From IMG/VR virus record IMGVR_UViG_2563366969_000002: a DNA stretch of 42,012 nt; one strand, written 5' to 3'. Under the pieces are notes generated by a model. The model saw nothing but the letters and a program-made list of their open reading frames with translations. It did not search any database and was not told where the DNA came from. This document shows, piece by piece, positions 1,564 through 19,326 of the stretch. How positions within the stretch are numbered: the stretch's first letter is position 1; the number at the start of each line of letters is the position of its first letter. Both the position numbers and the translations under genes were made by a program. The DNA comes from a virus (lineage: Duplodnaviria > Heunggongvirae > Uroviricota > Caudoviricetes).

Positions 1564-1659
1564 ATCACTACCTCCAAAGCATGAGTGAGATGACAACGTA
1601 ACATTGATTGGAGATTAACAATAGATTGCTGATGTAAAAGATATGTATAAGCTTCGCTT

Positions 1660-2313
1660 TCAAAGTGGAGGCTCTGGTAGCGGCATCCAGTGAGTTACGT
1701 CATCCAAGATATTTCCTGATAAATACGTGAAAGCTCTATATTTTTTGTAATCAATTGGATTTACAACCCAGTTCCAATATGCGGCCACGATTTCACCTTG
1801 ACTAAATGCCAGTAACATTTTGGTGTCTTCCGGCATTCGATCACTACAGCTTATCCAACCACCCGGAGTTACCGGAGAGTTGCCGCGTTCTTTAATGTGC
1901 AAGCGAGGCTCACCATCTTTTGGTTCAGGCCACTGGCGTTCCATGTTGATCTTCAATTTATTTTCCATAGCAGCGGTAATTTCAGCATCACTGATACCAG
2001 CACGGCGCTGTGCATCCCACAACAGAAACTGCATATCAGCCCACTCGCTAAGATCGTCTGGTTCGGCTGCGGCTTCCAGTGCCTCTTTTGAGAGATGTTT
2101 CAGCGGACCAATGGGGCCAACGCAGCCAAATGTGGAGTCAGACCATTTGGCATGCTCGTGGCGAATCTGTTCGCGTTCCAGTGAGGCGAGAGCGATTTTA
2201 AATGCTGTAAGCATGTGTGCTTGATCGTTGTCGAGTCCGAATGGCATTTCATCTCGTGCTGACTCAATACTGGTAATCGTATTTTGTAGCCATTCTTTGG
2301 TAAAAGTGCTCAT
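1660..2313 (-). CDS. Hypothetical protein, DUF550/DUF551-like (ea22 region)
   Basis: 217-aa ORF; C-terminal ...YLSGNILDDVTHWMPLPEPP resembles recalled DUF551 phage proteins. Family assignment from memory only. Confidence 0.55.
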   Translation of the reverse strand: MSTFTKEWLQNTITSIESARDEMPFGLDNDQAHMLTAFKIALASLEREQIRHEHAKWSDSTFGCVGPIGPLKHLSKEALEAAAEPDDLSEWADMQFLLWDAQRRAGISDAEITAAMENKLKINMERQWPEPKDGEPRLHIKERGNSPVTPGGWISCSDRMPEDTKMLLAFSQGEIVAAYWNWVVNPIDYKKYRAFTYLSGNILDDVTHWMPLPEPPL

Positions 2314-2681
2314 CGTAAAATATCCTCTATACTGGTAAGTCCTTCATTATTTAGCCAGATCATGGCGTCATCCGGCAACTTGCTGTCTGGTTTGGCGTTT
2401 TTGAGAGAGGAACTCAGTCGCTTAATCCACATTGTCACCTCAGTAATGCGCCTGTCTTTGCCTTCCAGCTCAACACGCAGCTTCCCTACCGTTAGCGCAA
2501 TATCCTCGTTCTCCTGGTCGCGGCGTTTGATGTATTGCTGGTTTCTTTCCCGTTCATCCAGCAGTTCCAGCACAATCGATGGTGTTACCAATTCATGGAA
2601 AAGGTCTGCGTCAAATCCCCAGTCGTCATGCATTGCCTGCTCTGCCGCTTCACGCAGTGCCTGAGAGTTAATTTCGCTCAC
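2310..2681 (-). CDS. Ead/Ea22-like protein
   Basis: 123-aa ORF starting MSEINSQALREAAEQAMHDDWGFDADLFHELVTPSIV..., typical N-terminus of Ea22-like proteins of E. coli lambdoid prophages (recalled). Confidence 0.6.
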   Translation of the reverse strand: MSEINSQALREAAEQAMHDDWGFDADLFHELVTPSIVLELLDERERNQQYIKRRDQENEDIALTVGKLRVELEGKDRRITEVTMWIKRLSSSLKNAKPDSKLPDDAMIWLNNEGLTSIEDILR

Positions 2682-2899
2682 TTCGAACCTCTCTGTTTAC
2701 TGATAAGCTCCAGATCTTCCTGGCAACTTGCACAAGTCCGACAACCCTGAACGGCCAAGCGTCTTCGTTCATCTATCGGATCGCCACACTCACAACAATG
2801 AGTGGCAGATATAGCCTGGTGGTTCAGGCGGCACATTTTTATTGCTGTGTTGCGCTGTAATTCTTCAATTTCTGATGCTGAATCAATGATGTCTGCCAT
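2678..2899 (-). CDS. TraR/DksA-type C4 zinc-finger protein
   Basis: 73-aa ORF with CxxC-x17-CxxC (CCECGDPIDERRRLAVQGCRTCASC). Confidence 0.7.
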   Translation of the reverse strand: MADIIDSASEIEELQRNTAIKMCRLNHQAISATHCCECGDPIDERRRLAVQGCRTCASCQEDLELISKQRGSK

Positions 2900-2997
2900 C
2901 TTTCATTAATCCCTGAATTGTTGGTTAATACGCTTGAGGGTGAATGCGAATAATAAAAAAGGAGCCTGTAGCTCCATGATGATTTTGTTTTTCATGC

Positions 2998-3279
2998 TCA
3001 CCGTTCCTTAAAGACGCCGTTTAACATGCCGATCGCCAGGCTTAAATGAGTCGGTGTGAATCCCATCAGCGTTACCGTTTCGCGGTGCTTCTTCAGTACG
3101 CTACGGCAAATGTCATCGACGTTTTTATCCGGAAACTGCTGTCTGGCTTTTTTGATTTCAGAATTAGCCTGACGGGCAATGCTGCGAAGGGCGTTTTCCT
3201 GCTGAGGTGTCACTGAACAAGCCCCATGTCGGCAAGCATAAGCACACAGAATATGAAGCCCGCAGCCAGAAAAATGCAT
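2998..3279 (-). CDS. Hypothetical protein (orf60a position)
   Basis: 93-aa ORF in early-left operon; no recognised family; start uncertain. Confidence 0.35.
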   Translation of the reverse strand: MHFSGCGLHILCAYACRHGACSVTPQQENALRSIARQANSEIKKARQQFPDKNVDDICRSVLKKHRETVTLMGFTPTHLSLAIGMLNGVFKER

Positions 3280-3289
3280 TCAGTGGTTG

Positions 3290-3481
3290 TCATACCTGGT
3301 CTCTCTCATCTGCTTCTGCTTTCGCCACCATCATTTCCAGTTTTTGTGAAAGGGATGTGGCTAACGTATGAAATTCTTTGTCTGTTTCTACTGGTATTGG
3401 CACAAACCTGATTCCAATTTGAGCGAGGCTATGTGCCATCTCGATACTCGTTCTTAACTCAACGGGAGATGCTTTGTGCAT
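3290..3481 (-). CDS. Lambda orf63-like protein
   Basis: 63-aa [37 protein letters not shown]... matches recalled lambda orf63. Confidence 0.6.
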   Translation of the reverse strand: MHKASPVELRTSIEMAHSLAQIGIRFVPIPVETDKEFHTLATSLSQKLEMMVAKAEADERDQV

Positions 3482-3642
3482 ACCGCCTCCCGTTTATTAT
3501 TTATCTTCTCAGCCAGCCGCTGTGCTTTCAGTGGATTTCTGATAACAGAAAGGCCGGGAAATACCCAGCCTCGCTTTGTAACGGAGTAGACGAAAGTGAT
3601 CGCACCTACCCGGATATTATCGTGAGGATGCTTCATCGCCAT
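3454..3642 (-). CDS. Lambda orf61-like protein
   Basis: 62-aa [48 protein letters not shown]... matches recalled lambda orf61. Confidence 0.6.
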
Positions 3643-4313
3643 TGCTCCCCAAATACAAAACCAATTTCAGCCAGTGCCTCGTCCATTTTTTCGATGAACT
3701 CCGGCACCATCTCGTCAAAACTCGCCATGTAATTTTCATCCCGCTCAACCACGACATAATGCAGGCCTTCACGCTTCATCCGCGGGTCATAGTTGGCAAA
3801 GTACCAGGCATCTTTTCGCGTCACCCACATGCTGTACTGCACCTGGGCCATGTAAGCCGACTTTATGGCCTCGAAACCACCGAGCCGGAATTTCATGAAA
3901 TCCCGGGAGGTAAACGGGCATTTCAGTTCAAGGCCGTTGCCGTCACTGCATAAACCATCGGGAGAGCAGGCGGTGCGCATACTTTCGTCGCGATAGATGA
4001 TCGGGGATTCAGTAACATTCACGCCGGAAGTGAATTCAAACAGAGTTCTGGCGTCGTTCTCGTACTGTTTTCCCCAGGCCAGTGCTTTAGCGTTAACTTC
4101 CGGAGCCACACCGGTGCAAACCTCGGCAAGCAGGGTGTGGAAGTAGGACATTTTCATGTCAGGCCACTTTTTTCCGGAGCGGGGTTTTGCTATCACATTG
4201 TGAACTTCTGAAGCGGTGATGACGCCGAGCCGTAATTTGTGCCACGCATCATCTCCCTGCTCGATAGCTCTCACGTCGATCCCGGTACGCTGCAGGATAA
4301 TGTCCGGTGTCAT
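3633..4313 (-). CDS. exo: Lambda exonuclease (Red alpha)
   Basis: 226-aa [65 protein letters not shown]... matches recalled lambda Exo. Confidence 0.95.
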
Positions 4314-5095
4314 GCTGCCACCTTCTGTTCAGTGGCTTTTTGTTTCAGGAATCCAAGAGCTTTCACTGCTTCGTCCTGTGTCAGTTCTGACGATGAACGA
4401 ATGTCGCGGCGAAATATCTGGGAACAGAGCGGCAATAAGTCGTCATCCCATGTTTTATCCAGGGCGATCAGCAGAGTGTTAATCTCCTGCATGGTTTCAT
4501 CGTTAACCGGAGTGATGTCGCGTTCCGGCTGACGTTCTGCAGTGTATGCGGTATTTTCGACAATGCGCTCGGCTTCATCCTTGTCATAGATACCAGTAAA
4601 TCCGAAGGACAGACGGGCACACTGAATCATGGCTTTATGCCGTAACATCCGTTTGGGATGCGACTGCCACGGTCCGGTGATTTCTCTGCCTTCGCGGGTT
4701 TTGAATGGTTCGCGGCGGCATTCATCCATCCACTCGGTAACGCAGATCGGATGATTGCGGTCTTTGCGGTAAATCCGGCATGTGCAGGATTCGTTGTCCT
4801 GTTCAAAGTCCATGCCATCAAACTGCTGGTTTTCGTTGATGATGCGGGACCAGCCATCAACGCCCACCACCGGAACGATGCCGTTCTGCTTATCAGGGAA
4901 GGCGTAAATTTCTTTCGTCCACGGATTAAGGCCGTATTGGTTGGCGACGATCAGCAATGCGATGAACTGCGCATCGCTGGCATCGCCTTTAAATGCTGTC
5001 TGGCGAAGAGTGGTGATCAGTTCCTGTGGGTCGACAGAATCCATGCCGACACGTTCAGCCAGCTTCCCAGCCAGCGTTGCGAGTGCTGTACTCAT
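4310..5095 (-). CDS. bet: Recombinase Beta (Red beta)
   Basis: 261-aa [62 protein letters not shown]... matches recalled lambda Bet; overlaps exo start. Confidence 0.95.
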
Positions 5096-5100
5096 CCGTT

Positions 5101-5397
5101 TTATACCTCTGAATCAATATCAACCTGGTGGTGAGCAATGGTTTCAACCATGTACCGGATGTGTTCTGCCATGCGCTCCTGAAACTCAACATCGTCATCA
5201 AACGCACGGGTAATGGCTTTTTTGCTGGCCCCGTGACGTTGCAAATGATCGATGCAGAGCGATTCAAACAAATGCTGGGGCAGACCCTTTTCCAGGTCGT
5301 CTGCCAGTTCTGCCTCTTTCTCTTCACGGGCGATCTGCTGGTAGTGACGCGCCCAGCTCTGAGCCTCAAGACGATCCTGAATGTAATAAGCGTTCAT
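5101..5397 (-). CDS. gam: Gam (RecBCD inhibitor), 98-aa form
   Basis: [60 protein letters not shown]... matches recalled lambda GamS. Confidence 0.9.
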
Positions 5398-5472
5398 GGC
5401 TGAACTCCTGAAAATGGCTGTGAAAATAGCGCCCGCGAAATGCCAGGCTGATTAGGAAAACAGGAAAGGGGG

Positions 5473-5616
5473 TTAGTGAATGCTTTTGCTTGATCTCAGT
5501 TTCAGTATTAATATCCATTTTTTATAAGCGTCGACGGCCTCACGAAACATCTTTTCATCGCCAATAAAAGTGGCGATAGTGAATTTAGTCTGGATAGCCA
5601 TAAGTGTTTGATCCAT
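5473..5616 (-). CDS. kil: Kil (host-killing, FtsZ inhibitor)
   Basis: 47-aa reading frame [47 protein letters not shown] matches recalled lambda Kil; internal start within a longer listed ORF. Confidence 0.75.
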
Positions 5617-5749
5617 TTTTTGGGACTCCTGGCTGATTAAGTATGTCGATAAGGCGTTTCCATCCGTCACGTAATTTACGGGTGATTCGTTCAAGTAAAG
5701 ATTCGGAAGGGCAGCCAGCAACAGGCCACCCTGCAATGGCATATTGCAT
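5585..5749 (-). CDS. cIII: cIII (protects cII from FtsH)
   Basis: Hand translation gives [54 protein letters not shown], matching recalled lambda cIII (54 aa); below the ORF-track size cutoff. Confidence 0.75.
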   Translation of the reverse strand: MQYAIAGWPVAGCPSESLLERITRKLRDGWKRLIDILNQPGVPKNGSNTYGYPD

Positions 5750-5821
5750 GGTGTGCTCCTTATTTATACATAACGAAAAACGCCTCGAGTGAAGCGTTAT
5801 TGGTATGCGGTAACGCCGCGC

Positions 5822-6190
5822 TCAGGCGGCTTTGATAGTCATATCATCTGAATCAAATATTCCTGATGTATCGATATCGGTAATTCTTATTCCTTCGCTA
5901 CCATCCATTGGAGGCCATCCTTCCTGACCATTTCCATCATTCCAGTCGAACTCACACACAACACCATATGCATTTAAGTCGCTTGAAATTGCTATAAGCA
6001 GAGCATGTTGCGCCAGCATGATTAATACAGCATTTAATACAGAGCCGTGTTTATTGAGTCGGTATTCAGAGTCTGACCAGAAATTATTAATCTGGTGAAG
6101 TTTTTCCTCTGTCATTACGTCATGGTCGATTTCAATTTCTATTGATGCTTTCCAGTCGTAATCAATGATGTATTTTTTGATGTTTGACAT
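5822..6190 (-). CDS. ea10: Ea10 protein
   Basis: 122-aa ORF MSNIKKYIIDYDWKASIEIEIDHDVMTEEKLHQINNFWSDSEYRL... at the lambda ea10 position and length. Confidence 0.8.
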   Translation of the reverse strand: MSNIKKYIIDYDWKASIEIEIDHDVMTEEKLHQINNFWSDSEYRLNKHGSVLNAVLIMLAQHALLIAISSDLNAYGVVCEFDWNDGNGQEGWPPMDGSEGIRITDIDTSGIFDSDDMTIKAA

Positions 6191-6210
6191 CTGTTCATAT
6201 CCTCATAGAT

Positions 6211-6236
6211 AAAAAATCGCCCTCACACTGGAGGGC
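6211..6236 (-). terminator. Intrinsic terminator-like hairpin in leftward operon
   Basis: GCCCTC-loop-GAGGGC stem, followed by a T-run when read on the minus strand (A-run 6211-6216 on plus). Confidence 0.45.
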
Positions 6237-6393
6237 AAAGAAGATTTCCAATAATCAGAACAAGTCGGCTCCTGTTTAGTTACGAGCGACATTGCTCCGT
6301 GTATTCACTCGTTGGAATGAATACACAGTGCAGTGTTTATTCTGTTATTTATGCCAAAAATAAAGGCCACTATCAGGCAGCTTTGTTGTTCTG

Positions 6394-6573
6394 TTAACCA
6401 AGTTCTCTGGCAATCATTGCCGTCGTTCGTATTGCCCATTTATCGACATATTTCCCATCTTCCATTACAGGAAACATTTCTTCAGGCTTAACCATGCATT
6501 CCGATTGCAGCTTGCATCCATTGCATCGCTTGAATTGTCCACACCATTGATTCTTATCAATAGTCGTAGTCAT
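6394..6573 (-). CDS. ral: Ral (restriction alleviation), 59-aa variant
   Basis: Hand translation MTTTIDKNQWCGQFKRCNGCKLQSECMVKPEEMFPVMEDGKYVDKWAIRTTAMIARELG* matches recalled lambda Ral but ends about 7 residues early. Confidence 0.7.
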   Translation of the reverse strand: MTTTIDKNQWCGQFKRCNGCKLQSECMVKPEEMFPVMEDGKYVDKWAIRTTAMIARELG

Positions 6574-6767
6574 ACGGATAGTCCTGGTACTGTTCCATTA
6601 CATCCTGCGGATGCTCTTCGAACTCTTCAAATTCTTCTTCCATATATCACCTTAAATAGTGGATTGCGGTAGTAAAGATTGTGCCTGTCTTTTAACCACA
6701 TCAGGCTCGGTGGTTCTCGTGTACCCCTACAGCGAGAAATCGGATAAACTATTACAACCCCTACAGT

Positions 6768-7322
6768 TTGATGAGTATAGAAATGGATCCACTCGTTATT
6801 CTCGGACGAGTGTTCAGTAATGAACCTCTGGAGAGAACCATGTATATGATCGTTATCTGGGTTGGACTTCTGCTTTTAAGCCCAGATAACTGGCCTGAAT
6901 ATGTTAATGAGAGAATCGGTATTCCTCATGTGTGGCATGTTTTCGTCTTTGCTCTTGCATTTTCGCTAGCAATTAATGTGCATCGATTATCAGCTATTGC
7001 CAGCGCCAGATATAAGCGATTTAAGCTAAGAAAACGCATTAAGATGCAAAACGATAAAGTGCGATCGGTAATTCAAAACCTTACAGAAGAGCAATCTATG
7101 GTTTTGTGCGCAGCCCTTAATGAAGGCAGGAAGTATGTGGTTACATCAAAACAATTCCCATACATTAGTGAGTTGATTGAGCTTGGTGTGTTGAACAAAA
7201 CTTTTTCCCGATGGAACGGGAAGCATATATTATTCCCTATTGAGGATATTTACTGGACTGAATTAGTTGCCAGCTATGATCCATATAATATTGAGATAAA
7301 GCCAAGGCCAATATCTAAGTAA
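6768..7322 (+). CDS. sieB: Superinfection exclusion protein B-like membrane protein
   Basis: 184-aa ORF with two hydrophobic segments (MYMIVIWVGLLLLSP, VWHVFVFALAFSLAINV), between ral and N, convergent with N as recalled for lambda sieB. Confidence 0.65.
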   Translation: MMSIEMDPLVILGRVFSNEPLERTMYMIVIWVGLLLLSPDNWPEYVNERIGIPHVWHVFVFALAFSLAINVHRLSAIASARYKRFKLRKRIKMQNDKVRSVIQNLTEEQSMVLCAALNEGRKYVVTSKQFPYISELIELGVLNKTFSRWNGKHILFPIEDIYWTELVASYDPYNIEIKPRPISK

Positions 7323-7646
7323 CTAGGTAAGAGGAATCGATTTTCCCTTAATTTTCTGGCGTCCACTGCATGTTATGCCGCGTTCGCCAGGCTTGCTGTA
7401 CCATGTGCGCTGATTCTTGCGCTCAATACGTTGCAGGTTGCTTTCAATCTGTTCGTGGTATTCAGCCAGCACTGTAAGGTCTATCGGATTCAGTGCGCTT
7501 TCTACTCGTGATTTCGGTTTGCGATTCAGCGAGAGAATAGGGCGGTTAACTGGTTTTGCGCTTACCCCAACCAACAGGGGATTTGCTGCTTTCCATTGAG
7601 CCTGTTTCTCTGCGCGACGTTCGCGGCGGCGTGTTTGTGCATCCAT
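7323..7646 (-). CDS. N: Antiterminator N
   Basis: MDAQTRRRERRAEKQAQWKAANPLLVGVSAKPVNRPILSLNRKPKSRVESALNPIDLTVLAEYH... matches recalled lambda N; AGGAGA RBS upstream of the internal ATG at 7646. Confidence 0.9.
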   Translation of the reverse strand: MDAQTRRRERRAEKQAQWKAANPLLVGVSAKPVNRPILSLNRKPKSRVESALNPIDLTVLAEYHEQIESNLQRIERKNQRTWYSKPGERGITCSGRQKIKGKSIPLT

Positions 7647-7756
7647 CTGGATTCTCCTGTCAGTTAGCTTTGAGTAACGCGCCGTGATGCTTATCCCCAC
7701 GGTTGCTGTCTTGCAGCTGCATTTCGCGCTACTCAAAGCTTTCTGCTTTGAATGCT

Positions 7757-7771
7757 GCCCTTCTTCAGGGC
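7757..7771 (-). promoter_or_regulatory. nutL boxB hairpin
   Basis: Minus-strand GCCCTGAAGAAGGGC, identical to recalled lambda boxB, between pL and N. Confidence 0.8.
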
Positions 7772-7829
7772 TAAATTTTTAAGAGCCTCACCTTCAATGG
7801 TGGTTAGTGCGTCCTGCTGACGAGCTAAG

Positions 7830-7890
7830 TATCACCGCTAGTGGTATTTGTGTCAACACCGCTAGAGATATTTTATCACCGCAAATGGTT
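7830..7890. promoter_or_regulatory. oL operators / pL promoter
   Basis: Three 17-bp sites TATCACCGCTAGTGGTA, CAACACCGCTAGAGATA, TATCACCGCAAATGGTT, near-identical to recalled lambda OL1-OL3. Confidence 0.85.
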
Positions 7891-8050
7891 ATCTGTATGT
7901 TTTTTATATGGATTTATTTTTTCGAGTGAGTGTATTGCCTCGGCGATGTAAGGAGAGATCAGAATTGCGTTGTTTAGTGAGTTGTATCTATTTATTTTCC
8001 AATAAATACAATTGGTTATGTGTTTTTAGGTGGGGCGATCGTGAGGCAAA

Positions 8051-8078
8051 GAAAACCCGGCGCTGAGGCCGGGCTTTT
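8051..8078 (-). terminator. Intrinsic terminator after the cI-downstream gene
   Basis: CCCGGCGCTGAGGCCGGG stem flanked by A-run (8051-8055) and T-run (8074-8078); terminates leftward transcripts from pRM. Confidence 0.55.
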
Positions 8079-8095
8079 AGGGCGGGTTGATGCTC

Positions 8096-9133
8096 TTAAC
8101 ACCCTTTAATGGGAGTTGAGATACGAGATATCATTGCTGATTCAATTATCCCACTTCTGACTTTATAGTCACCAAAAAGAGAAATTGAATCAGAAAGTTT
8201 CATGCTTTCATAAAGAAGGTCTGTTTCGTCTTTATCTATAAAATCAGTAACAACATAAGCAGGGAAGGTATAATCAGTGCCAACCTTTTTGCAAGTTACT
8301 GTCAGCTTTCCATCTGATTTTTTAATGCCTTCAATTTCAACTTCTTCTGTAAGTTCTTTGTTGGAAAGTTTCTCACGTGGGTTTCTTATCATTTCGGCAA
8401 TATCACGCTTATCTAATTCGATCTTTGCCATACCATTAAACTCTACTCTGTCAGCATCTGAGACGCCTTTCAACACCCCAACCACAGCATTTGAAGTATG
8501 GGATTGAATTCCCTCTGAAATCTCCCTCGCAGCTGCTGTGGCAGTATGAGCAGAAAGAACTTCAACCATGCCATCTTTAAGCAGTCTCATTTGCTCAGTT
8601 TGGCTGTTGGTGTCGTTGAGGCCTTCATCAATCTCAAGTTGCTTCATTTTTTCTATATGGCGATCTTTTTGTCTCGACTTTATCAGCCAAGCCCCAGTAA
8701 GGATCAGCGATATGAGAACGAGACATATAGCTTTCTCTGTTCCAGTCATACCTTGTGTTGACCTCTCAAATGCAACACCAAATGAATCAATTACATCCTT
8801 TATAGCAACAAGTAGGTCAGTACAGCCAGGCTCAACTTTAAAAATTATCTCAAGCTCTTTTCTATCACTGTCTTTCAAATGCTTGAGATTATCCGTTCCT
8901 CGCCTTACAAGCATAAACGCTTTATAAAGTTCGGTCTGAAACTCGCACATACCTTGAGCTAAAGAGGACGGTATCGTCCCATTATACCGGTCTGGATCAC
9001 CATAAATCTTGAAACTTACGTGGTTAACAAAATCAATTTTAATGTCATTGATAGATATTTGCTGACCTTTCTGAACTCTTTCTAAAAACTCTGAAACGTC
9101 GCTTAATGATGAGATATCAATTTGATTGTCCAT
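8096..9133 (-). CDS. Unknown membrane-anchored protein in the rexAB slot
   Basis: 345-aa frame from ATG at 9133 (MDNQIDISSLSD...), 23 nt downstream of cI stop, same strand; one central hydrophobic helix (AICLVLISLILTGAWLI); charged coiled-coil-like C-terminal half; AT-rich by eye; no family recognised. Confidence 0.7.
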   Translation of the reverse strand: MDNQIDISSLSDVSEFLERVQKGQQISINDIKIDFVNHVSFKIYGDPDRYNGTIPSSLAQGMCEFQTELYKAFMLVRRGTDNLKHLKDSDRKELEIIFKVEPGCTDLLVAIKDVIDSFGVAFERSTQGMTGTEKAICLVLISLILTGAWLIKSRQKDRHIEKMKQLEIDEGLNDTNSQTEQMRLLKDGMVEVLSAHTATAAAREISEGIQSHTSNAVVGVLKGVSDADRVEFNGMAKIELDKRDIAEMIRNPREKLSNKELTEEVEIEGIKKSDGKLTVTCKKVGTDYTFPAYVVTDFIDKDETDLLYESMKLSDSISLFGDYKVRSGIIESAMISRISTPIKGC

Positions 9134-9155
9134 ATCTTTTCTCAATGTTATTGTG

Positions 9156-9872
<717 letters not shown>

Positions 9873-9879
9873 TTAAATC

Positions 9880-9943
9880 TATCACCGCAAGGGATAAATA
9901 TCTAACACCGTGCGTGTTGACTGTTTTACCTCTAGCGGTGATA
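9880..9943. promoter_or_regulatory. oR operators / pRM-pR
   Basis: TATCACCGCAAGGGATA, TAACACCGTGCGTGTTG, TACCTCTAGCGGTGATA match recalled lambda OR3, OR2, OR1 (OR1 one mismatch). Confidence 0.85.
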
Positions 9944-9960
9944 ATAATTGCATGTACTAA

Positions 9961-10170
<210 letters not shown>

Positions 10171-10288
10171 ATAACACCGCTCTTACACATCACAGCCCTG
10201 AAAAAGGGCATCCAATTAAACCACACCTATGGTGTATGCATTTATTTGCATACATTCAATCAATTGTTATCTAAGGAAATACTTACAT

Positions 10289-10582
10289 ATGGTTCGTGCA
10301 AACAAACGCAACGAGGCACTACGAATCGAGAGTGCGTTGCTTAACAAAATCGCAATGCTTGGAACTGAGAAGACAGCGGAAGCTGTGGGAGTTGATAAGT
10401 CGCAGATCAGCAGGTGGAAGAGAGACTGGATTCCCAAGTTCTCAATGCTGCTTGCTGTTCTTGAATGGGGGGTCGTTGACGACGACATGGCTCGATTGGC
10501 GCGACAAGTTGCTGCGATTCTCACCAATAAAAAACGCCCGGCGGCAACCGAGCGTTCTGAACAAATCCAGATGGAGTTCTGA
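10289..10582 (+). CDS. cII: cII transcriptional activator
   Basis: ATG at 10289 gives MVRANKRNEALRIESALLNKIAMLGTEKTAEAVGVDKSQISRWKRDWIPKF..., matching recalled lambda cII; the longer listed ORF starts upstream. Confidence 0.93.
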   Translation: MVRANKRNEALRIESALLNKIAMLGTEKTAEAVGVDKSQISRWKRDWIPKFSMLLAVLEWGVVDDDMARLARQVAAILTNKKRPAATERSEQIQMEF

Positions 10583-10614
10583 GGTCATTACTGGATCTAT
10601 CAACAGGAGTCATT

Positions 10615-11514
10615 ATGACAAATACAGCAAAAATACTCAACTTCGGCAGAGGTAACTTTGCCGGACAGGAGCGTAATGTGGCAGATCTCGATGATGGTTA
10701 CGCCAGACTATCAAATATGCTGCTTGAGGCTTATTCGGGCGCAGATCTGACCAAGCGACAGTTTAAAGTGCTGCTTGCCATTCTGCGTAAAACCTATGGG
10801 TGGAATAAACCAATGGACAGAATCACCGATTCTCAACTTAGCGAGATTACAAAGTTACCTGTCAAACGGTGCAATGAAGCCAAGTTAGAACTCGTCAGAA
10901 TGAATATTATCAAGCAGCAAGGCGGCATGTTTGGACCAAATAAAAACATCTCAGAATGGTGTATCCCTCAAAACGAGGGACAATCCCCTAAAACGAGGGA
11001 TAAAACATCCCTCAAATTGGGGGATTGCTATCCCTCAAAACAGGGGGACACAAAAGACACTATTACAAAAGAAAAAAGAAAAGATTATTCGTCAGAGAAT
11101 TCTGGCGAATCCTCTGACCAGCCAGAAAACGATCTTTCTGTGGTTAAACCGGATGCTGCAATTCAGAGCGGCAGCAGGTGGGGGACAGCAGAAGACCTGA
11201 CCGCCGCAGAGTGGATGTTTGACATGGTGAAGACCATCGCGCCATCAGCCAGAAAACCGAATTTTGCAGGGTGGGCTAACGATATCCGCCTGATGCGTGA
11301 ACGTGACGGACATAACCACCGCGACATGTGCGTGCTGTTCCGCTGGGCATGCCAGGACAACTTCTGGTCCGGTAACGTGCTGAGTCCGGCCAAACTCCGC
11401 GACAAGTGGACCCAGCTCGAAATCAACCGTAACAAGCAACAGGCAGGCGTGACAGCTAGCAAACCAAAACTCGACCTGACAAACACAGACTGGATTTACG
11501 GGGTGGATCTATGA
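10615..11514 (+). CDS. O: Replication initiator O
   Basis: 299-aa ORF MTNTAKILNFGRGNFAGQERNVADLDDGYARLSNMLLEAY... matches recalled lambda O; contains ori iterons. Confidence 0.95.
   Translation: MTNTAKILNFGRGNFAGQERNVADLDDGYARLSNMLLEAYSGADLTKRQFKVLLAILRKTYGWNKPMDRITDSQLSEITKLPVKRCNEAKLELVRMNIIKQQGGMFGPNKNISEWCIPQNEGQSPKTRDKTSLKLGDCYPSKQGDTKDTITKEKRKDYSSENSGESSDQPENDLSVVKPDAAIQSGSRWGTAEDLTAAEWMFDMVKTIAPSARKPNFAGWANDIRLMRERDGHNHRDMCVLFRWACQDNFWSGNVLSPAKLRDKWTQLEINRNKQQAGVTASKPKLDLTNTDWIYGVDL
10963..11090 (+). repeat. ori-lambda: four ~18-bp iterons plus AT-rich tract
   Basis: ATCCCTCAAAACGAGGGA / ATCCCCTAAAACGAGGGA / ATCCCTCAAATTGGGGGA / ATCCCTCAAAACAGGGGGA followed by A-rich stretch, inside O. 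Confidence 0.85.
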
Positions 11515-12212
11515 AAAACATCGCCGCACAGATGATTAACTTTGACCGTGAGCAGATGCGTCGGATCGCCAACAACATGCCGGAACAGTACGACGAAAAG
11601 CCGCAGGTACGGCAGGTAGCGCAGATCATCAATGGTGTGTTCAGCCAGTTACTGGCAACTTTCCCGGCGAGCCTGGCTAACCGGGACCAGAACGAACTGA
11701 ACGAAATCCGCCGCCAGTGGGTTCTGGCTTTCCGGGAAAACGGGATCACCACAATGGAACAGGTTAACGCAGGAATGCGCGTAGCCCGTCGGCAGAATCG
11801 ACCATTCCTGCCATCACCCGGGCAGTTTGTTGCATGGTGCCGTGAAGAAGCATCCGTTATTGCCGGACTGCCAAACGCCAGCGAGCTGGTTGATATGGTT
11901 TACGAGTATTGCCGGAAGCGTGGCCTGTATCCGGATGCAGAGTCTTATCCGTGGAAATCAAACGCGCACTACTGGCTGGTTACTAGCCTGTACCAGAATA
12001 TGCGGGCCAATGCGCTTACTGATACGGAATTACGGCGCAAGGCTGCCGATGAACTGACTTGTATCACCGCGCGAATTAACCGTGGTGAGGCGATACCTGA
12101 ACCAGTAAAACAACTTCCTGTCATGGGCGGTAGACCTCTAAATCGTGCACAGGCTCTGGCGAAGATCGCAGAAATCAAAGCTAAGTTTGGGCTGAAAGGA
12201 GCAAGTGTATGA
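11511..12212 (+). CDS. P: Replication protein P (DnaB loader)
   Basis: 233-aa ORF MKNIAAQMINFDREQMRRIANNMPEQYDEKPQVRQVAQIINGVFSQLLATFPASLANRDQ... matches recalled lambda P. Confidence 0.95.
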   Translation: MKNIAAQMINFDREQMRRIANNMPEQYDEKPQVRQVAQIINGVFSQLLATFPASLANRDQNELNEIRRQWVLAFRENGITTMEQVNAGMRVARRQNRPFLPSPGQFVAWCREEASVIAGLPNASELVDMVYEYCRKRGLYPDAESYPWKSNAHYWLVTSLYQNMRANALTDTELRRKAADELTCITARINRGEAIPEPVKQLPVMGGRPLNRAQALAKIAEIKAKFGLKGASV

Positions 12213-12271
12213 CGGGCAAAGAGGCAAGTATTCATTATGAGAAACTTTCTAAATTTTTTGAGCCAGATTAG
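12209..12271 (+). pseudogene. ren: Truncated ren (first ~20 codons only)
   Basis: ATGA overlap with P stop; MTGKEASIHYEKLSKFFEPD* — first residues match recalled lambda Ren (MTGKEAIIHY...), then diverges and stops. Confidence 0.5.
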
Positions 12272-12415
12272 TGGTCTTGGATTCAGTTTACGTCTCAGAT
12301 ACTGAGAAAAATAACAATTTGTGATACATGTTAACATTATGACTTTTCAGGCTTTCACCAAATTTTTTTAAGAGTATTCTGACCCTTTCGTATCAATGCA
12401 TGAACAGGAATCTAT

Positions 12416-13435
12416 ATGTGTTATAGCAATGTTACAGATCGTGATCTTATGGGGCAAATTGCTACTAAATTAAATGACTATCGAAACCCTCCTCAAGGTG
12501 GCATGAGCATTGATCATGTTAATCGATGGATTAATCAATTTGAGTTAACCGATAGGCGATTTGTCTTAGAGGAAACGGACCGATTAATGGGGATTGGATA
12601 CTTCTCTGAGAGCGACTATCGCAGAGTTATTAGTAGTATCGCCAATGATGAGCAAAATGAAAGGTTCTTTCAAACCGCAGCGTTTCTCGATATCCAGAAC
12701 CAAGGCACCAGTCAATCTGAGTTTTTGGATTTGCTTCGAGAAGATTGTGTAGAAGAATTCAACGTTGTGACCAGACTGTCACAACGTCAAAGAGTTAGTT
12801 CATTCCGTGAATTTATTTACCTTGACGATGTTTCATTCTCAGGAGCTAAGGCAATCAATGATTTAACTTGGTTTATTGAGCACTTTGAACTCCAAAATAT
12901 TACAATATTGGTGTACTTTTTAGGCGGGCACACGTATTCAGCATGGAAGATAAAAAACCAACTTGAACGAAAATTTGCTGATAGGAATATTTCAGTTTGC
13001 GTTGGTGGTGGTGAGTTTGCAGTTGTTGAAAATCAACGCCGAAACAGTTCGAGTTCTGAGGTTTTTTGGCCAAAAGCGCAAAGTGTATCAATACCTGAAT
13101 GGGCTGACGGTCAAGTACATTATTTAGGAACATATCGTGACGGTTACGTCGCGAATAATTTTTTCCCTAATGAGCAGAGACGAGATCGTTTTGAAGCAAT
13201 TATGACAAAAGTTGGGTTTGATATCCTTGGTCAGAGTCAAAATCCTTCTGATGTTATAAAGCCTTTAGGCTTTTCAACTTTCAATGGTGTTGGGTTTGGT
13301 GGAACTATCTTTACTTTCAGAAACTGCCCCAATAATACCCCTCTAGCGTACTGGTGGGGAACTTATCTTCGAACGGGAAATAGAGCTCTGGATTGTTGGT
13401 ATCCACTTATGAAGCGTAATGTGTATAATCGGTGA
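12416..13435 (+). CDS. Unknown 339-aa protein, gene A of inserted two-gene module
   Basis: ATG at 12416 with AGGAA 6 nt upstream; AT-rich by eye; no confident family. Weak resemblance of FIYLDDVSFSGAKAI to the PRPP-binding loop of phosphoribosyltransferases (low confidence). Confidence 0.75.
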   Translation: MCYSNVTDRDLMGQIATKLNDYRNPPQGGMSIDHVNRWINQFELTDRRFVLEETDRLMGIGYFSESDYRRVISSIANDEQNERFFQTAAFLDIQNQGTSQSEFLDLLREDCVEEFNVVTRLSQRQRVSSFREFIYLDDVSFSGAKAINDLTWFIEHFELQNITILVYFLGGHTYSAWKIKNQLERKFADRNISVCVGGGEFAVVENQRRNSSSSEVFWPKAQSVSIPEWADGQVHYLGTYRDGYVANNFFPNEQRRDRFEAIMTKVGFDILGQSQNPSDVIKPLGFSTFNGVGFGGTIFTFRNCPNNTPLAYWWGTYLRTGNRALDCWYPLMKRNVYNR

Positions 13436-14049
13436 TCATGAGCTATAGACTATACCTGTTTCACAACACAGTTTCTTTCAGGAAAACCACCGAGAAATGG
13501 GGTGGTCTTTCCAACATGGCCAAAGGATATCCGCTCTTAGTTAATGGTATACCCATTCAATCGAGTGAAATTCTTTACCAAGCATGCCGATATCCAGACT
13601 ATCCAGATATCCAAAAGGCTATTATTACCCAAGGCAACCCTTATGAAGCTAAACAAACCGCCAGATCTTTCGAAGCCAAAACCCGTGCAGGTTGGGAAAA
13701 AAATCGAGTTTCGGTAATGAAATGGTGTGTCTGCGTTAAGCTTTGCCAGAACTGGGAATCGTTTTTCGCGCTCCTGGATAGCACAGGAGAGCATGACATT
13801 GTTGAGCACTCAGAGAAGGACCAATTTTGGGGGGCTAGTAAAGACTCCGAAGGTAACTTTTATGGTATGAACGTGTTAGGTCGTATCCTTATGGATGCGA
13901 GAGATGTTGCAAGAAAGAAGGGGCTTTCAGGGTTTGCTACGATACCGCCGCTACCCTTGGATAGGTTTCTTCTGCTCGGGGAGCAAATACGTGATGTTAC
14001 TTTCTCTCCACTACCGATGAATTCGGGGCAAAGCTTATCGCTTTTTTAA
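13432..14049 (+). CDS. NADAR / YbiA-like (DUF1768) protein, gene B of inserted module
   Basis: 205-aa ORF; start overlaps gene A stop (GTG 13432 in GTGA, or ATG 13438). Matches the recalled YbiA/NADAR pattern: SNM..(Y)..SSE.LYQA.....WE..RV.VM......K..QN.....LL.STG...IVEH...D.FWG......GN.LG.ILM..R. Confidence 0.7.
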   Translation: MIMSYRLYLFHNTVSFRKTTEKWGGLSNMAKGYPLLVNGIPIQSSEILYQACRYPDYPDIQKAIITQGNPYEAKQTARSFEAKTRAGWEKNRVSVMKWCVCVKLCQNWESFFALLDSTGEHDIVEHSEKDQFWGASKDSEGNFYGMNVLGRILMDARDVARKKGLSGFATIPPLPLDRFLLLGEQIRDVTFSPLPMNSGQSLSLF

Positions 14050-14086
14050 TGTGGCGTTGTTCCTTTCACTGTCGTGACAGATCTGC

Positions 14087-14110
14087 AAACCCGCTTTGGC
14101 GGGTTTTTTA
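14087..14110 (+). terminator. Rho-independent terminator after the two-gene module
   Basis: AAACCCGC-TTTG-GCGGGTTT stem-loop followed by TTTTTT, 38 nt after gene B stop. Confidence 0.8.
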
Positions 14111-14323
14111 TAAATTATGCAACTTATTGACTTGCTACCGATATGTCAGACTTTAACATAGCAGCTAAAATCTAGTACGAAGCCGACAAGGTAAACATTG
14201 ACTTGGTGGCATCTAGTAAAGCGTACAATGAGTGCCTGAAGTTTTATTCCGAGAAGTCGATAACTTTACCTAAAGGTAGCGATCGGTAGCGATCCGGTTT
14301 ATCTGAAAACAGGAGGGTTGAAA

Positions 14324-14527
14324 GTGACGATAGAATTTGAATCTACCCCAGAAGGGGCAAGGCAGGGAATGACACATCATCAGCGAAAAATTAGAGAACT
14401 TTTGGAAGAAGAAACTGCTATATGCGAGGACGCTCTTGAAGGTGAATACAATCAAGGTCGTCTGGATGAAATACATAAAGAGATAGCCTATCGAGAAAGC
14501 CAAATCGAAAAATTGAAGGTTATTTGA
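14324..14527 (+). CDS. Small charged protein, unknown function
   Basis: GTG at 14324 preceded by AGGAGG (14311-14316); ~67 aa, highly charged, helical/coiled-coil-like (…ELLEEETAICEDALEGEYNQGRLDEIHKEIAYRESQIEKLKVI). Confidence 0.35.
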   Translation: MTIEFESTPEGARQGMTHHQRKIRELLEEETAICEDALEGEYNQGRLDEIHKEIAYRESQIEKLKVI

Positions 14528-14724
14528 AGACATGAAAGCAATTTGATTTCCAGCTATCAACCCGCCATAATCATGTCATCGGAGCCTGAACAACTCCGGT
14601 GACTTCTGCGCTAAACGGGGACGTTTATGCGCACATACAATCCAAACTCTCTTCTCCCTTCACAGATGCAGAAATGCACCTGCGATGTCTTGCATCCAGC
14701 GTTTGATCTCTGCGGAGGTGAAGC

Positions 14725-15180
14725 GTGAACCTCCCACAAGATGGCATCAAATTACATCGCGGTAACTTCACCGCTGTCGGTCAGCAGATCCAGACTTATC
14801 TGGAAGACGGCAAATGCTTTCGCATGGTGCTTAAACCGTGGCGCGAGAGACGCAGTCTTTCCCAGAATGCACTCAGCCACATGTGGTACAGCGAAATCAG
14901 TGAATACCTCATCAGCAGGGGTAAAACGTTCGCCACTCCAGATTGGGTAAAAGATGCTCTCAAACACACTTATCTCGGTTATGAAACCAAAGAACTGGTT
15001 GATGTCGTAACCGGTGAAATCACCACCATTCAGTCATTACGTCATACCTCCGATCTCGATACCGGAGAGATGTATGTCTTCCTGTGTAAGGTTGAAGCCT
15101 GGGCGATGAATATTGGCTGCCACCTGACTATTCCGCAGAGCTGCGAGTTCCAGCTGCTGCGCGACAAGCAGGAGGCGTAA
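14725..15180 (+). CDS. NinB/YbcN-like protein
   Basis: 151-aa [65 protein letters not shown]... matches recalled DLP12 YbcN, at the ninB position. Confidence 0.75.
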
Positions 15181-15350
15181 TGGCTACACCGCTTATTCGT
15201 GTCATGAACGGACACATCTACAAAGTACCAAATCGTCGTAAGCGTAAACCTGAGCTGAAGCCATCCGAAATACCAACTCTGCTCGGATATACCGCCAGCC
15301 TGGTTGATAAAAAATGGTTGCGACTGGCAGCAAGGAGGAATCATGGCTGA
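15180..15350 (+). CDS. ninE: NinE-like protein
   Basis: 56-aa frame [56 protein letters not shown]; TAATG overlap with preceding gene. Confidence 0.65.
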   Translation: MATPLIRVMNGHIYKVPNRRKRKPELKPSEIPTLLGYTASLVDKKWLRLAARRNHG

Positions 15351-15633
15351 TTTGAGAAAAGCAGCGCGTGGTCGGGAATGCCAGGTAAGAATCCCTGGCG
15401 TATGTAATGGCAATTCTGAAACGTCTGTACTGGCACATATCCGGCTGGCTGGATTGTGTGGCACCGGTACCAAACCGCCAGACCTGATTGCCACCATTGC
15501 ATGTTCTGCCTGTCACGATGAGATCGACCGTCGCACGCATTTTGTTGACGCTGGATATGCAAAAGAATGCGCGCTGGAAGGTATGGCGAGAACACAGGTT
15601 ATCTGGCTGAAAGAGGGGGTTATTAAGGCGTGA
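15343..15633 (+). CDS. YbcO-like (DUF1364) protein
   Basis: ATG at 15343 preceded by AAGGAGG; [42 protein letters not shown]...[11 protein letters not shown]... matches recalled DLP12 YbcO. Confidence 0.7.
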
Positions 15634-15992
15634 ATACCTACAGCATCACATTACCCTGGCCTCCGAGCAATAATCGCTATTACCGCCATAATCGCGGGCG
15701 CACGCACATCAGCGCAGAGGGGCAGGCATACCGCGATAACGTCGCCCGAATCATTAAAAACGCAATGCTGGATATCGGCCTGGCTATGCCTGTGAAAATC
15801 CGCATTGAGTGCCACATGCCGGATCGCCGTCGCCGTGACCTGGATAATCTGCAAAAAGCCGCTTTTGACGCACTCACTAAAGCAGGTTTCTGGCTGGATG
15901 ATGCTCAGGTCGTTGATTACCGCGTTGTGAAGATGCCTGTTACCAAAGGTGGGAGGCTGGAACTGACCATCACCGAAATGGGGAATGAATGA
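15630..15992 (+). CDS. rusA: Holliday junction resolvase RusA
   Basis: 120-aa [80 protein letters not shown]... matches recalled RusA. Confidence 0.9.
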
Positions 15993-19295: not shown

Positions 19296-19326
19296 AGCTG
19301 CCCATATCGATGGGCAACTCATGCAA

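What the first reader, a model, noticed from the sequence alone, without database searches (positions are those of the whole stretch)
8096..9133. Unknown membrane-anchored protein in the rexAB slot, co-transcribed with cI
Seen in sequence: a single 345-aa ORF starts 23 nt after the cI stop on the same strand and ends just before a hairpin terminator (8051-8078) and oL/pL. It has one central hydrophobic helix and a highly charged, helical C-terminal half, and is AT-rich compared with cI. Established knowledge: in lambda this slot holds rexA-rexB, an abortive-infection/exclusion system expressed from pRM in lysogens. Inference: a lysogen-expressed single-gene exclusion or abortive-infection determinant with no recognisable family.
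Basis: partly seen in the sequence, partly recalled or inferred. Interest (0 to 1): 0.7.

Follow-up and report, generated by a model that had tools for sequence, protein, structure and literature searches.

The report
Uncharacterised repressor-operon protein replacing RexAB
In this lambda-like prophage the classic RexAB phage-exclusion genes are cleanly replaced by one gene for an unstudied protein with a hydrophobic helix and an OB-fold, and its family sits just behind the repressor gene in many different prophages, which makes it a good but untested candidate for a new phage-defence protein.

Summary
A 345-aa ORF (8096-9133, minus strand) starts 22 nt after the cI stop and ends before the tImm hairpin and oL/pL. 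It is AT-rich (38.5% GC; cI 45%) and has one hydrophobic helix (aa 135-152). One correction: the last 120 residues are a beta-rich OB-fold, not helical.

Alignment with lambda shows that window 8074-9159 replaces exactly rexB, rexA and the cI-rexA spacer.

Pfam, NCBIfam and PADLOC give no match; the only hit is PHROG 6191 (unknown function). A profile search nevertheless finds 810 clusters of ~330-aa relatives.

In 12 of 15 genomic contexts examined, the relative lies downstream of an HTH/S24 repressor on the same strand. These include lambdoid and P2-like prophages.

A deep-alignment AlphaFold model (pLDDT 90, pTM 0.85) shows a conserved N-terminal alpha/beta domain, the hydrophobic helix, a variable charged stalk and a C-terminal OB-fold. 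No solved structure matches the whole protein.

Other occupants of this slot are defence or candidate defence genes (RexAB, PDC-M66, PDC-S43).

Best reading: a lysogen-expressed, membrane-associated, single-protein exclusion or abortive-infection determinant, resembling AbiP/PdpSau in architecture. Function, membrane topology and expression are all untested. The 2025 "T2SS GspM" label is unsupported.

The parts
8096..9133 (-). 345-aa ORF (= mEp33204 of phage mEp332, PHROG 6191), the cassette gene
   Evidence: 100% identical to EF120456/PV340541; exact protein seen on 620 contigs, always named 'hypothetical'
8744..9133 (-). N-terminal alpha/beta domain (aa 1-130). This is the most conserved part of the family; G45, L86, G103 and M129 are about 98% conserved.
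8678..8731 (-). Single hydrophobic helix (aa 135-152, AICLVLISLILTGAWLIK), flanked by conserved K134 and containing conserved G147
   Evidence: KD 2.09. Top-scoring segment at the same place in 62 of 63 relatives and a close second in P0023. Aligned essentially without gaps, always hydrophobic but variable in identity.
8465..8677 (-). Charged helical stalk (aa 153-223). Residues 153-172 are the most variable stretch, differ in length among relatives and have low pLDDT.
8114..8365 (-). C-terminal OB-fold (aa 257-340: three strands, a helix, two strands), with a conserved K324-x-R326-x-G328-x-I330-E331 motif among closer relatives
9134..9155 (-). 22-nt cI-ORF spacer with a weak GAG Shine-Dalgarno and no terminator
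   Evidence: read directly from the sequence
9156..9869 (-). cI repressor, lambda immunity type (96% nucleotide identity to lambda over cI-cro)
9876..9904 (-). pRM, overlapping oR3/oR2. Coordinates transferred from the EF120456 annotation.
   Evidence: mapping is window = 10590 - L002 coordinate
8047..8078 (-). tImm-like intrinsic terminator hairpin plus U-run
7828..7890 (-). oL1-oL3 and pL
8074..9159 (.). Cassette (1086 bp) that replaces lambda 35825-37230, i.e. rexB, rexA and the cI-rexA spacer
   Evidence: blastn against J02459: flanks match at 96% and 89%, interior has no similarity

Best explanation
The gene is a moron carried in the repressor operon. It is expressed in the lysogen from pRM, read through from cI and stopped at tImm. 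It most likely encodes a single-protein determinant that protects the lysogen from other phages, taking the place RexAB holds in lambda.

The protein has four parts: a conserved N-terminal alpha/beta domain, one hydrophobic helix, a variable charged stalk, and a C-terminal OB-fold.

Proposed mechanism (inferred, not shown):
1. The protein sits at the inner membrane through its hydrophobic helix.
2. The OB-fold recognises a product of the infecting phage, either nucleic acid or a protein.
3. The conserved N-terminal domain and the helix then act at the membrane, either depolarising it to abort the infection or blocking an early membrane-linked step.

This parallels the architecture reported for AbiP (Lactococcus) and PdpSau (S. 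aureus prophages), which combine a transmembrane helix with an OB-fold.

Shown by computation: the gene, the exact slot, the conserved position behind repressors, the family size and the domain architecture. Inferred: expression, membrane insertion, ligand and phenotype.
For: Slot:
- Clean replacement of rexB and rexA between the cI stop and tImm, with a 22-nt spacer and a terminator after the ORF.
- Low GC relative to its neighbours, as expected for an acquired cassette.

Family:
- 810 clusters at 50% identity with E <= 1e-3 and 340 with E <= 1e-10, nearly all about 320-350 aa matched over their full length.

Conserved position behind a repressor, same strand, in 12 of 15 contexts:
- Lambdoid phages with different immunities: PhiR12_2; phi458 Orf11, 25 nt after CI and confirmed as a member by hhalign at probability 99.9.
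- Morganella, Pantoea and further Logan/NCBI prophages.
- P2-like prophages of Halomonas and gammaproteobacterial MAGs.

What else occupies the slot:
- rexAB in 99 E. coli genomes.
- A HipA-family kinase plus DUF3037, matching PADLOC PDC-M66A/B, in a prophage 99.9% identical to the window outside the immunity module.
- DUF3024, matching PDC-S43, between cI and the Morganella family member.
- The literature already calls the cI-N region a mosaic hotspot that holds RexAB and BstA (PMC8585504).

Architecture:
- AF2 model with pLDDT 90.3 and pTM 0.85.
- C-terminal OB-fold.
- A hydrophobic helix at the same place across the 63 relatives, variable in identity as lipid-facing helices usually are.
- A conserved N-terminal domain with a more variable stalk and C-terminal part, a pattern compatible with a fixed effector and an evolving sensor.
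- Published single-gene abortive-infection proteins with a TM helix plus OB-fold: AbiP and PdpSau (PMC10127798, PMC13064643).
Against: - No experiment or expression data exist for this gene or any relative. All source names are 'hypothetical' and no held paper treats it.
- None of 5027 PADLOC models gives a meaningful match. The window protein has no hit, and across 63 members only six scattered single-member hits appear, best E = 5e-4.
- Membrane topology is unresolved. Flank charges across the family show no clear positive-inside bias.
- pTM 0.85 implies that the N- and C-terminal domains pack together. That is hard to reconcile with a helix that simply separates two compartments (inference).
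- OB-folds are generic and occur in periplasmic as well as cytoplasmic proteins.
- Gene position is suggestive only. RexAB itself also affects the lysogeny-to-lysis transition (Thomason 2021, as cited in PMC12315714).
- In P2-like prophages the gene follows two conserved small ORFs, so 'single-gene' may not hold throughout the family.
Confidence: 0.5

Rival explanations
1. Superinfection exclusion at DNA entry. The protein is bitopic, with the N-terminus in the cytoplasm and the C-terminus outside. Its periplasmic stalk and OB-fold bind the tape-measure or ejection proteins, or an inner-membrane entry factor, and block genome injection without killing the cell. HK97 gp15, P22 SieA and Ltp work in this general way.
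For: - The family-wide net charge is slightly more positive on the N-terminal flank of the helix (+0.37 against -0.75), and K134 just before the helix is conserved.
- A flexible stalk of variable length follows the helix.
- The neighbouring gene sieB shows that this region collects exclusion functions.
Against: - In the window protein itself the C-terminal flank is the more positive one, 5 K/R against 2.
- A well conserved 130-aa cytoplasmic domain is not needed for a simple injection block.
- pTM 0.85 suggests the N- and C-terminal domains touch.
- Known injection blockers are much smaller (own knowledge).
Confidence: 0.18
2. An accessory of the lysogeny switch rather than a defence protein. 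It would modulate prophage induction or the stability of the repressed state, as reported for RexA/RexB, perhaps by coupling envelope or nucleic-acid signals to the switch.
For: - The gene is tightly and widely linked to repressor genes across unrelated phage types.
- RexAB, which it replaces, has such a second role (Thomason 2021, cited in PMC12315714).
Against: - The slot is hypervariable among prophages with the same lambda-type cI. rexAB occurs in 99 of 618 genomes that carry a full-length lambda-type cI and this gene in 18 genomes (17 of the 18 not examined for their cI type). Others carry small hypothetical genes or a Clp-fold protease. A core switch component would not be this dispensable.
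- There is no DNA-binding HTH or other regulator signature.
Confidence: 0.1
3. A lysogenic-conversion envelope factor that benefits the host in ways unrelated to phages, such as stress tolerance, serum resistance or colonisation. Bor/Iss and Lom are examples.
For: - It is a membrane-associated protein presumably expressed from a prophage in the lysogen.
- Low GC marks it as a moron.
- The same prophage carries an Iss/Bor-type lipoprotein gene.
Against: - Relatives occur in prophages of very different habitats (E. coli, Morganella, Pasteurella, Halomonas and environmental metagenomes). That argues against a niche-specific host factor.
- There is no signal peptide or lipobox.
- The slot is otherwise filled by defence-type genes.
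Confidence: 0.12
4. A GspM-like component of a type II secretion system, as in the 2025 GenBank annotation 'T2SS GspM containing protein'.
For: The annotation in PV340541 and the PhiR12 records. GspM is also a single-pass inner-membrane protein (own knowledge).
Against: - No Pfam hit at all at E <= 10 for this protein, and no GspM hit among 63 relatives.
- None of the contexts examined contains gsp genes.
Confidence: 0.02

Closest known systems
Lambda RexA/RexB (abortive infection/exclusion, cI operon)
   Same: The genomic position is identical: between the cI stop and tImm, presumably on the pRM transcript. Both are lysogen-expressed morons with a membrane-associated component.
   Different: - No sequence relationship: hhalign probability 1% to RexA and 0.2% to RexB, and the PADLOC RexA model hits lambda RexA but not this protein.
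- One gene instead of two.
- One hydrophobic helix instead of the four in RexB.
- An OB-fold instead of the RexA/RdgC-like fold.
AbiP (Lactococcus) and PdpSau (S. aureus prophage): single-protein abortive-infection determinants with a TM helix and a nucleic-acid-binding OB-fold
   Same: Single gene. Hydrophobic anchor helix plus OB-fold. PdpSau is also prophage-encoded and acts after DNA entry (PMC10127798; PMC13064643).
   Different: - Their TM helix is N-terminal. Here it is central and preceded by a conserved 130-aa domain with no counterpart.
- The protein is larger (345 aa), from Gram-negative hosts, and sits in a different locus. pdpSau lies near the lysis genes.
- Sequence or structural homology could not be tested because those sequences are not held.
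BstA (Salmonella phage BTP1 and relatives)
   Same: A single defence gene that lies downstream of the prophage repressor and probably shares its promoter, conserved in that position across diverse Gram-negative prophages (PMC8585504).
   Different: BstA is reported to localise to sites of phage DNA replication and is not described there as a membrane protein (PMC8585504). No Pfam domain of any kind is detected in the present protein.
PHROG 6191
   Same: Full-length match, E = 6e-116.
   Different: The PHROG has no assigned function, so membership says nothing about mechanism.

Membership tests
Lambda RexAB system | Sequence homology to RexA or RexB | tested here: not met
   hhalign of the 63-sequence profile against RexA (prob 1.0%) and RexB (prob 0.2%). 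No PADLOC RexA hit, while lambda RexA scores 9e-110 as a positive control.
Lambda RexAB system | Two-component organisation: cytoplasmic sensor plus a four-TM membrane protein | tested here: not met
   One ORF fills the slot, and it has one hydrophobic segment only.
Lambda RexAB system | Location between cI and tImm on the pRM transcript | tested here: met
   Cassette boundaries lie at the cI stop and the rexB stop, with a 22-nt spacer and a terminator hairpin. Transcription itself was not tested.
Lambda RexAB system | Exclusion of T4 rII mutants, with membrane depolarisation on infection | not testable with these tools
   Needs phage challenge and membrane-potential assays.
AbiP/PdpSau-type TM + OB-fold abortive-infection proteins | Hydrophobic membrane-anchor helix | tested here: inconclusive
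   A strong hydrophobic helix is found at the same place across the 63 relatives. It is central rather than N-terminal, and whether it inserts into the membrane, and in which orientation, is unresolved.
AbiP/PdpSau-type TM + OB-fold abortive-infection proteins | OB-fold domain | tested here: met
AbiP/PdpSau-type TM + OB-fold abortive-infection proteins | Sequence or structural homology to AbiP (A2RIX6) or PdpSau | not tested
No significant Abi-family match in Pfam or PADLOC.
AbiP/PdpSau-type TM + OB-fold abortive-infection proteins | Nucleic-acid binding and an abortive-infection phenotype | not testable with these tools
   Needs EMSA with the purified domain and infection assays.
T2SS GspM (PF04612), per the 2025 GenBank label | Match to the GspM profile or fold | tested here: not met
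   Zero Pfam hits at E <= 10. None among 63 relatives. No GspM-like chain among the top PDB fold matches.
T2SS GspM (PF04612), per the 2025 GenBank label | Encoded within a gsp/T2SS operon | tested here: not met
   All 15 contexts examined are prophage or phage regions without gsp genes.
PHROG 6191 | Full-length profile match | tested here: met
   E = 6.3e-116, residues 1-344 on profile positions 4-337 of 338.
Known or candidate defence systems in PADLOC-DB 2.0 | Significant match to any of 5027 models | tested here: not met
   No hit for the protein. Among 63 relatives there are only six scattered single-member hits, with E between 5e-4 and 1e-2.
BstA | Position downstream of the prophage repressor | tested here: met
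   and 12 of 15 family contexts
BstA | BstA domain content | tested here: not met
   No Pfam domain is detected in this protein. The BstA sequence itself was not compared.

The most novel reading that the evidence does not exclude
This gene would be the founding, experimentally tractable member of a large and unrecognised family of temperate-phage defence proteins (at least 810 clusters at 50% identity). The family rides in the repressor operon of lambdoid, P2-like and other prophages across Proteobacteria.

It would be a self-contained sensor-effector with an architecture no solved structure matches as a whole: a conserved N-terminal domain, a hydrophobic helix and an OB-fold sensor. If the compact AlphaFold model is right, the hydrophobic helix may be a latent or monotopic membrane element deployed on infection, rather than a static bitopic anchor.
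Probability: 0.35. Interest if true: 0.72.

Novelty: new variant of a known kind. Interest (0 to 1): 0.6.

Why it matters
The cI-to-N interval of lambdoid phages is a classic place where prophages keep genes that protect the lysogen. RexAB has been studied there for more than 60 years and its mechanism is still unsettled.

- **A new family.** This cassette is a natural, one-gene replacement for RexAB in phages with lambda immunity, including mEp332, which has been propagated on E. coli K-12 MG1655. If it excludes phages, it adds a new protein family to the defence catalogue, one with hundreds of diverse relatives and no current annotation.
- **A simple test system.** It offers a single-gene system, in the best-known phage genetic background, for asking how a membrane-associated protein senses infection.
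- **A search rule.** It supports looking immediately downstream of, and co-oriented with, a prophage repressor as a way to find new defence genes.
- **An annotation fix.** The analysis corrects a misleading 2025 database label (T2SS GspM).

Tried and rejected
- **Window identity.** I first took the window to be phage mEp332 itself. This was rejected. Only 2666-12237 matches mEp332, at 98.6%. The rest is 99.9% identical to a prophage in E. coli FDAARGOS_1372 that carries a different immunity module.
- **Locus search.** The search for related loci failed with the broad alignments A2 and A3 because no stretch was conserved enough. With A1 it returned a single Pantoea locus.
- **Word-indexed homologue search.** It finds only 11 to 23 clusters and badly understates the family. 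The exhaustive profile search finds 810.
- **First AlphaFold run.** With 11 sequences the model was poor (pLDDT 59), so its fold search was repeated on the deep-alignment model.
- **Literature.** Searches for mEp332, PhiR12, PV340541, phi458 Orf11 and lambdoid hotspot papers found no functional study. Degnan et al. 2007, which first sequenced this immunity region, is not held.
- **Minor hits discarded.** The NCBI name 'DUF5339' on one relative (P0162) is not supported (E = 0.12). Its weak DUF7947 hit (E = 0.0036) is below threshold and unique to that protein.
- **Topology from charge.** Flank-charge analysis was inconclusive.
- **Internal promoter.** A pLit-like promoter inside the ORF was considered. 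The scan found no more promoter-like sites than in shuffled sequence.
Full report
**1. What is in the sequence**

On the minus strand, cI occupies 9156-9869. A 345-codon ORF runs from the ATG at 9133 to the stop at 8096. The spacer between the two genes is 22 nt. It contains only a weak GAG Shine-Dalgarno and no hairpin.

Homologues from other genera start at the same methionine. The 9133 start is therefore preferred over a longer 374-aa reading that would overlap cI.

Downstream of the stop lies a G+C-rich hairpin with a U-run at about 8052-8077. It is annotated as Timm in GenBank EF120456. oL3-oL1 and pL follow, with the pL hexamers at 7856-7828.

The ORF is 38.5% GC, against 45.2% for cI and 49.4% for the window. 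It has one strongly hydrophobic segment, aa 135-152, with a Kyte-Doolittle mean of 2.09.

**2. It is exactly the rexAB slot**

- blastn against lambda (J02459) aligns window 9160-10029 with lambda 37231-38100 at 96%. This covers the end of cI through cro.
- Window 7734-8073 aligns with lambda 35496-35824 at 89%. This covers pL/oL/tImm up to the base after the rexB stop.
- The interior has no similarity to lambda.

Window 8074-9159 (1086 bp) therefore replaces lambda 35825-37230, which holds rexB, rexA and the cI-rexA spacer. The breakpoints are at the ends of the flanking functional units.

**3. Identity of the gene and of the window**

The ORF is 100% identical to mEp33204 of phage mEp332. 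It was annotated 'conserved hypothetical protein' in 2007 and 'T2SS GspM containing protein' in 2025.

The window itself is not mEp332. Only 2666-12237 matches it, at 98.6%. Window 1-5479 and 11048-25000 are 99.9% identical to a prophage in E. coli FDAARGOS_1372, which carries a different immunity module in place of window 5480-11047.

The exact protein occurs on 620 contigs and is always named 'hypothetical'. The gene is present at 99.7% identity or more in 18 of 5426 complete E. coli genomes.

**4. Family**

Pfam, NCBIfam and PADLOC give no hit, even at E <= 10. The only match is PHROG 6191, of unknown function (E = 6e-116).

The word-indexed search found only 11 clusters. An exhaustive hmmsearch with their alignment found far more:

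- 810 representative clusters (50% identity) at E <= 1e-3.
- 340 clusters at E <= 1e-10.
- Nearly all are 320-350 aa and match over their full length.

Scanning 63 diverse members individually against Pfam and PADLOC gave only scattered single-member hits, with best E-values of 2e-4 (Pfam) and 5e-4 (PADLOC).

A single hydrophobic segment at the same relative position is the top-scoring 19-residue window in 62 of the 63. In P0023 it ranks a close second, 1.17 against 1.21. The segment aligns essentially without gaps and is variable in residue identity. The exceptions are K134 (68%) just before it and G147 (86%) within it.

The N-terminal domain (aa 45-134) is the most conserved part; G45, L86, G103 and M129 are about 98% conserved. 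Residues 153-172 are the most variable and differ in length among relatives.

**5. Structure**

With the 63-sequence alignment, AlphaFold2 gives a confident model: pLDDT 90.3 and pTM 0.85. The shallow 11-sequence alignment had given pLDDT 59. The model has these elements:

| Residues | Element |
|---|---|
| 1-125 | alpha/beta domain |
| 131-148 | hydrophobic helix |
| 150-165, 170-194, 200-223 | helices; pLDDT about 60 for residues 150-170 |
| 229-250 | small beta-hairpin and helix |
| 257-339 | classic OB-fold (three strands, a helix, two strands) |

No GspM-like structure appears among the top matches. Together with the empty Pfam result and the absence of gsp genes nearby, this leaves the 2025 GenBank label unsupported.

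**6. Genomic context of relatives**

Fifteen distinct contexts were examined. In 12, the family member lies downstream of an HTH_3 and/or Peptidase_S24 repressor gene on the same strand:

- The window itself.
- PhiR12_2, which has a different cI.
- phi458 Orf11, 25 nt after CI. hhalign probability 99.9 confirms it as a full-length member at 18% identity.
- Morganella lambdoid prophages, with a DUF3024 gene in between.
- Another lambdoid prophage, ordered cI, the family member, then N.
- A Pantoea prophage.
- Two further prophages.
- A prophage ordered repressor, a 214-aa ORF, the family member, a 162-aa ORF, then integrase.
- Three P2-like prophages from Halomonas and gammaproteobacterial metagenomes. 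There it follows two conserved ORFs of about 116-133 aa and about 109 aa.

The three exceptions are:

- Pasteurella phage Pmp14, where it follows a 'transcriptional regulator' and a 'polymerase'.
- A phage contig where it lies between structural genes and an Arc/KilA-N region.
- A contig end next to a gene with a weak Abi_2 hit.

This conserved position holds across unrelated phage types and down to about 20% identity. It is the strongest evidence that the protein works in the lysogenic state.

**7. What else sits in this slot**

A full-length lambda-type cI is present in 618 of 5426 E. coli genomes. rexAB is present in only 99 and this gene in 18.

Other lambda-cI prophages carry different genes after cI:

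- A 127-aa hypothetical gene (O157:H7).
- Two hypothetical genes (E2348/69).
- An SDH-family Clp-fold serine protease.

In the sibling prophage of FDAARGOS_1372, the genes behind the repressor are a HipA-family kinase and a DUF3037 protein. These match the PADLOC candidate system PDC-M66A/B (E = 6e-15 and 4e-16). The DUF3024 gene between cI and the Morganella family member matches PDC-S43 (E = 1e-30). Lambda RexA, used as a positive control, hits the RexA model at 9e-110.

Owen et al. describe the same architecture for BstA and call the cI-N interval a mosaic hotspot (PMC8585504).

**8. Mechanism**

Shown by computation: the gene, the slot, the family, the conserved position behind repressors, the domain architecture and the absence of any enzymatic signature.

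Inferred from the lambda paradigm: pRM transcripts read from cI through the ORF to tImm, so the protein is made in lysogens.

Inferred from architecture and analogy: the protein is membrane-associated and uses its OB-fold to recognise a phage-derived ligand. The conserved N-terminal domain and the helix would carry out the response at the membrane.

Published single-gene abortive-infection proteins share the theme of a TM helix plus an OB-fold:

- AbiP binds nucleic acids and needs its TM segment.
- PdpSau is prophage-encoded and acts after DNA entry (PMC13064643, PMC10127798).

The main uncertainty is membrane topology:

- Flank charges show no clear positive-inside bias across the family, although the window protein itself is more positive on the C-terminal side.
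- pTM 0.85 implies that the N- and C-terminal domains are packed against each other. This argues against a simple bitopic arrangement.
- The pattern of uniform hydrophobicity with low positional conservation favours a lipid-facing helix.

I put the general reading, a lysogen-expressed phage-exclusion or abortive-infection determinant, at about 0.5. The specific OB-sensor and membrane-effector mechanism is at about 0.25.

**9. Rivals**

- An injection-blocking exclusion protein with a periplasmic OB-fold: 0.18.
- A Rex-like accessory of the lysogeny switch: 0.10. The dispensability and hypervariability of the slot weaken this reading.
- A non-phage lysogenic-conversion envelope factor: 0.12. 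The spread across very different hosts weakens this reading.
- A GspM-like secretion component: 0.02. There is no sequence, fold or context support.

**10. Novelty and verdict**

The ORF has been in GenBank since 2007 and belongs to a PHROG, so its existence is not new. From memory, Degnan et al. 2007 sequenced this immunity region; the paper is not held.

Three things appear to be new. No paper in the held library addresses them:

- The size of the family.
- Its conserved placement behind repressors across lambdoid and P2-like prophages.
- The confident model of an architecture that combines an N-terminal domain, a hydrophobic helix and an OB-fold, with no solved counterpart.

In kind it is a further occupant of a known hotspot. 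In protein family it is unrelated to any characterised defence system. I therefore rate it a new variant of a known kind, with interest 0.6. It is a strong, cheap-to-test candidate in the best-understood phage background, but every functional claim remains inference.

Noticed in passing
window 5480-11047, compared with L028 5481-10067: The whole immunity module (kil side through ral, sieB, N, pL, the ORF, cI, cro, cII and the start of O) is swapped relative to a prophage in E. coli FDAARGOS_1372 that is 99.9% identical on both sides. In that prophage the genes behind its S24 repressor are a HipA-family kinase and a DUF3037 protein, matching the PADLOC candidate system PDC-M66A/B. The two prophages are a natural near-isogenic pair that differ in immunity and in the moron behind the repressor.
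   Followed up: partly
window 6768-7322 (+): sieB (superinfection exclusion B, 184 aa) lies next to N, about 770 bp from the ORF. The prophage therefore carries a second exclusion-type gene in the same region.
   Followed up: no
window 12416-13435 (+) and 13432-14049 (+): A gene for a phosphoribosyltransferase-like protein is followed by a NADAR-family gene, both inserted after replication gene P. Names come from the RefSeq annotation of the 99.9% identical prophage. This may be a defence or counter-defence pair.
   Followed up: no
window 17037-17840 (-), 19327-19668 (-) and 1660-2313 (-): Three further morons on the same prophage: a DUF3800 protein between Q and the holin gene, an Iss/Bor-type serum-survival lipoprotein after the lysis genes, and a protein with a dATP/dGTP pyrophosphohydrolase domain near int/xis.
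   Followed up: no
L011 5252-5985; L013 5255-5985; L016 3335-4209: In P2-like prophages the family member is always preceded by two small ORFs of about 116-133 aa and about 109 aa, which have no significant Pfam match. These are possible partner genes, and they are absent from the lambdoid contexts.
   Followed up: partly
L007 5566-5907: In Morganella prophages a DUF3024 gene sits between cI and the family member. It matches the PADLOC candidate PDC-S43 at E = 1e-30.
   Followed up: partly
protein P0010 (E. coli, 245 aa, 53 contigs): A shorter relative keeps about the first 70 residues and the C-terminal half. It lacks most of the N-terminal domain and the hydrophobic helix, as if by an internal in-frame deletion, yet it is widespread.
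   Followed up: no
L025 3842-4225; L026 3722-4517; L027 3830-4831: Other prophages with lambda-type cI carry different uncharacterised cassettes in the same slot. These are a 127-aa protein (O157:H7), a 145-aa plus 123-aa pair (E2348/69), and an SDH-family Clp-fold serine protease (CUVET19-970). None matches PADLOC. rexAB accounts for only 99 of the 618 genomes with a full-length lambda-type cI.
   Followed up: partly
L014 4618-5361 (-): In the one context that does not look like a prophage, the divergently oriented neighbour has a sub-threshold Abi_2 hit (E = 0.004). The contig ends right after the family member.
   Followed up: no
L006 5259-5906 and window 9156-9200: The Pantoea repressor has a different N-terminal DNA-binding part but ends with the same C-terminal sequence as lambda cI (...QWPEETFG). 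The family member follows directly. The conserved end of cI may serve as a recombination joint for cassette exchange.
   Followed up: no
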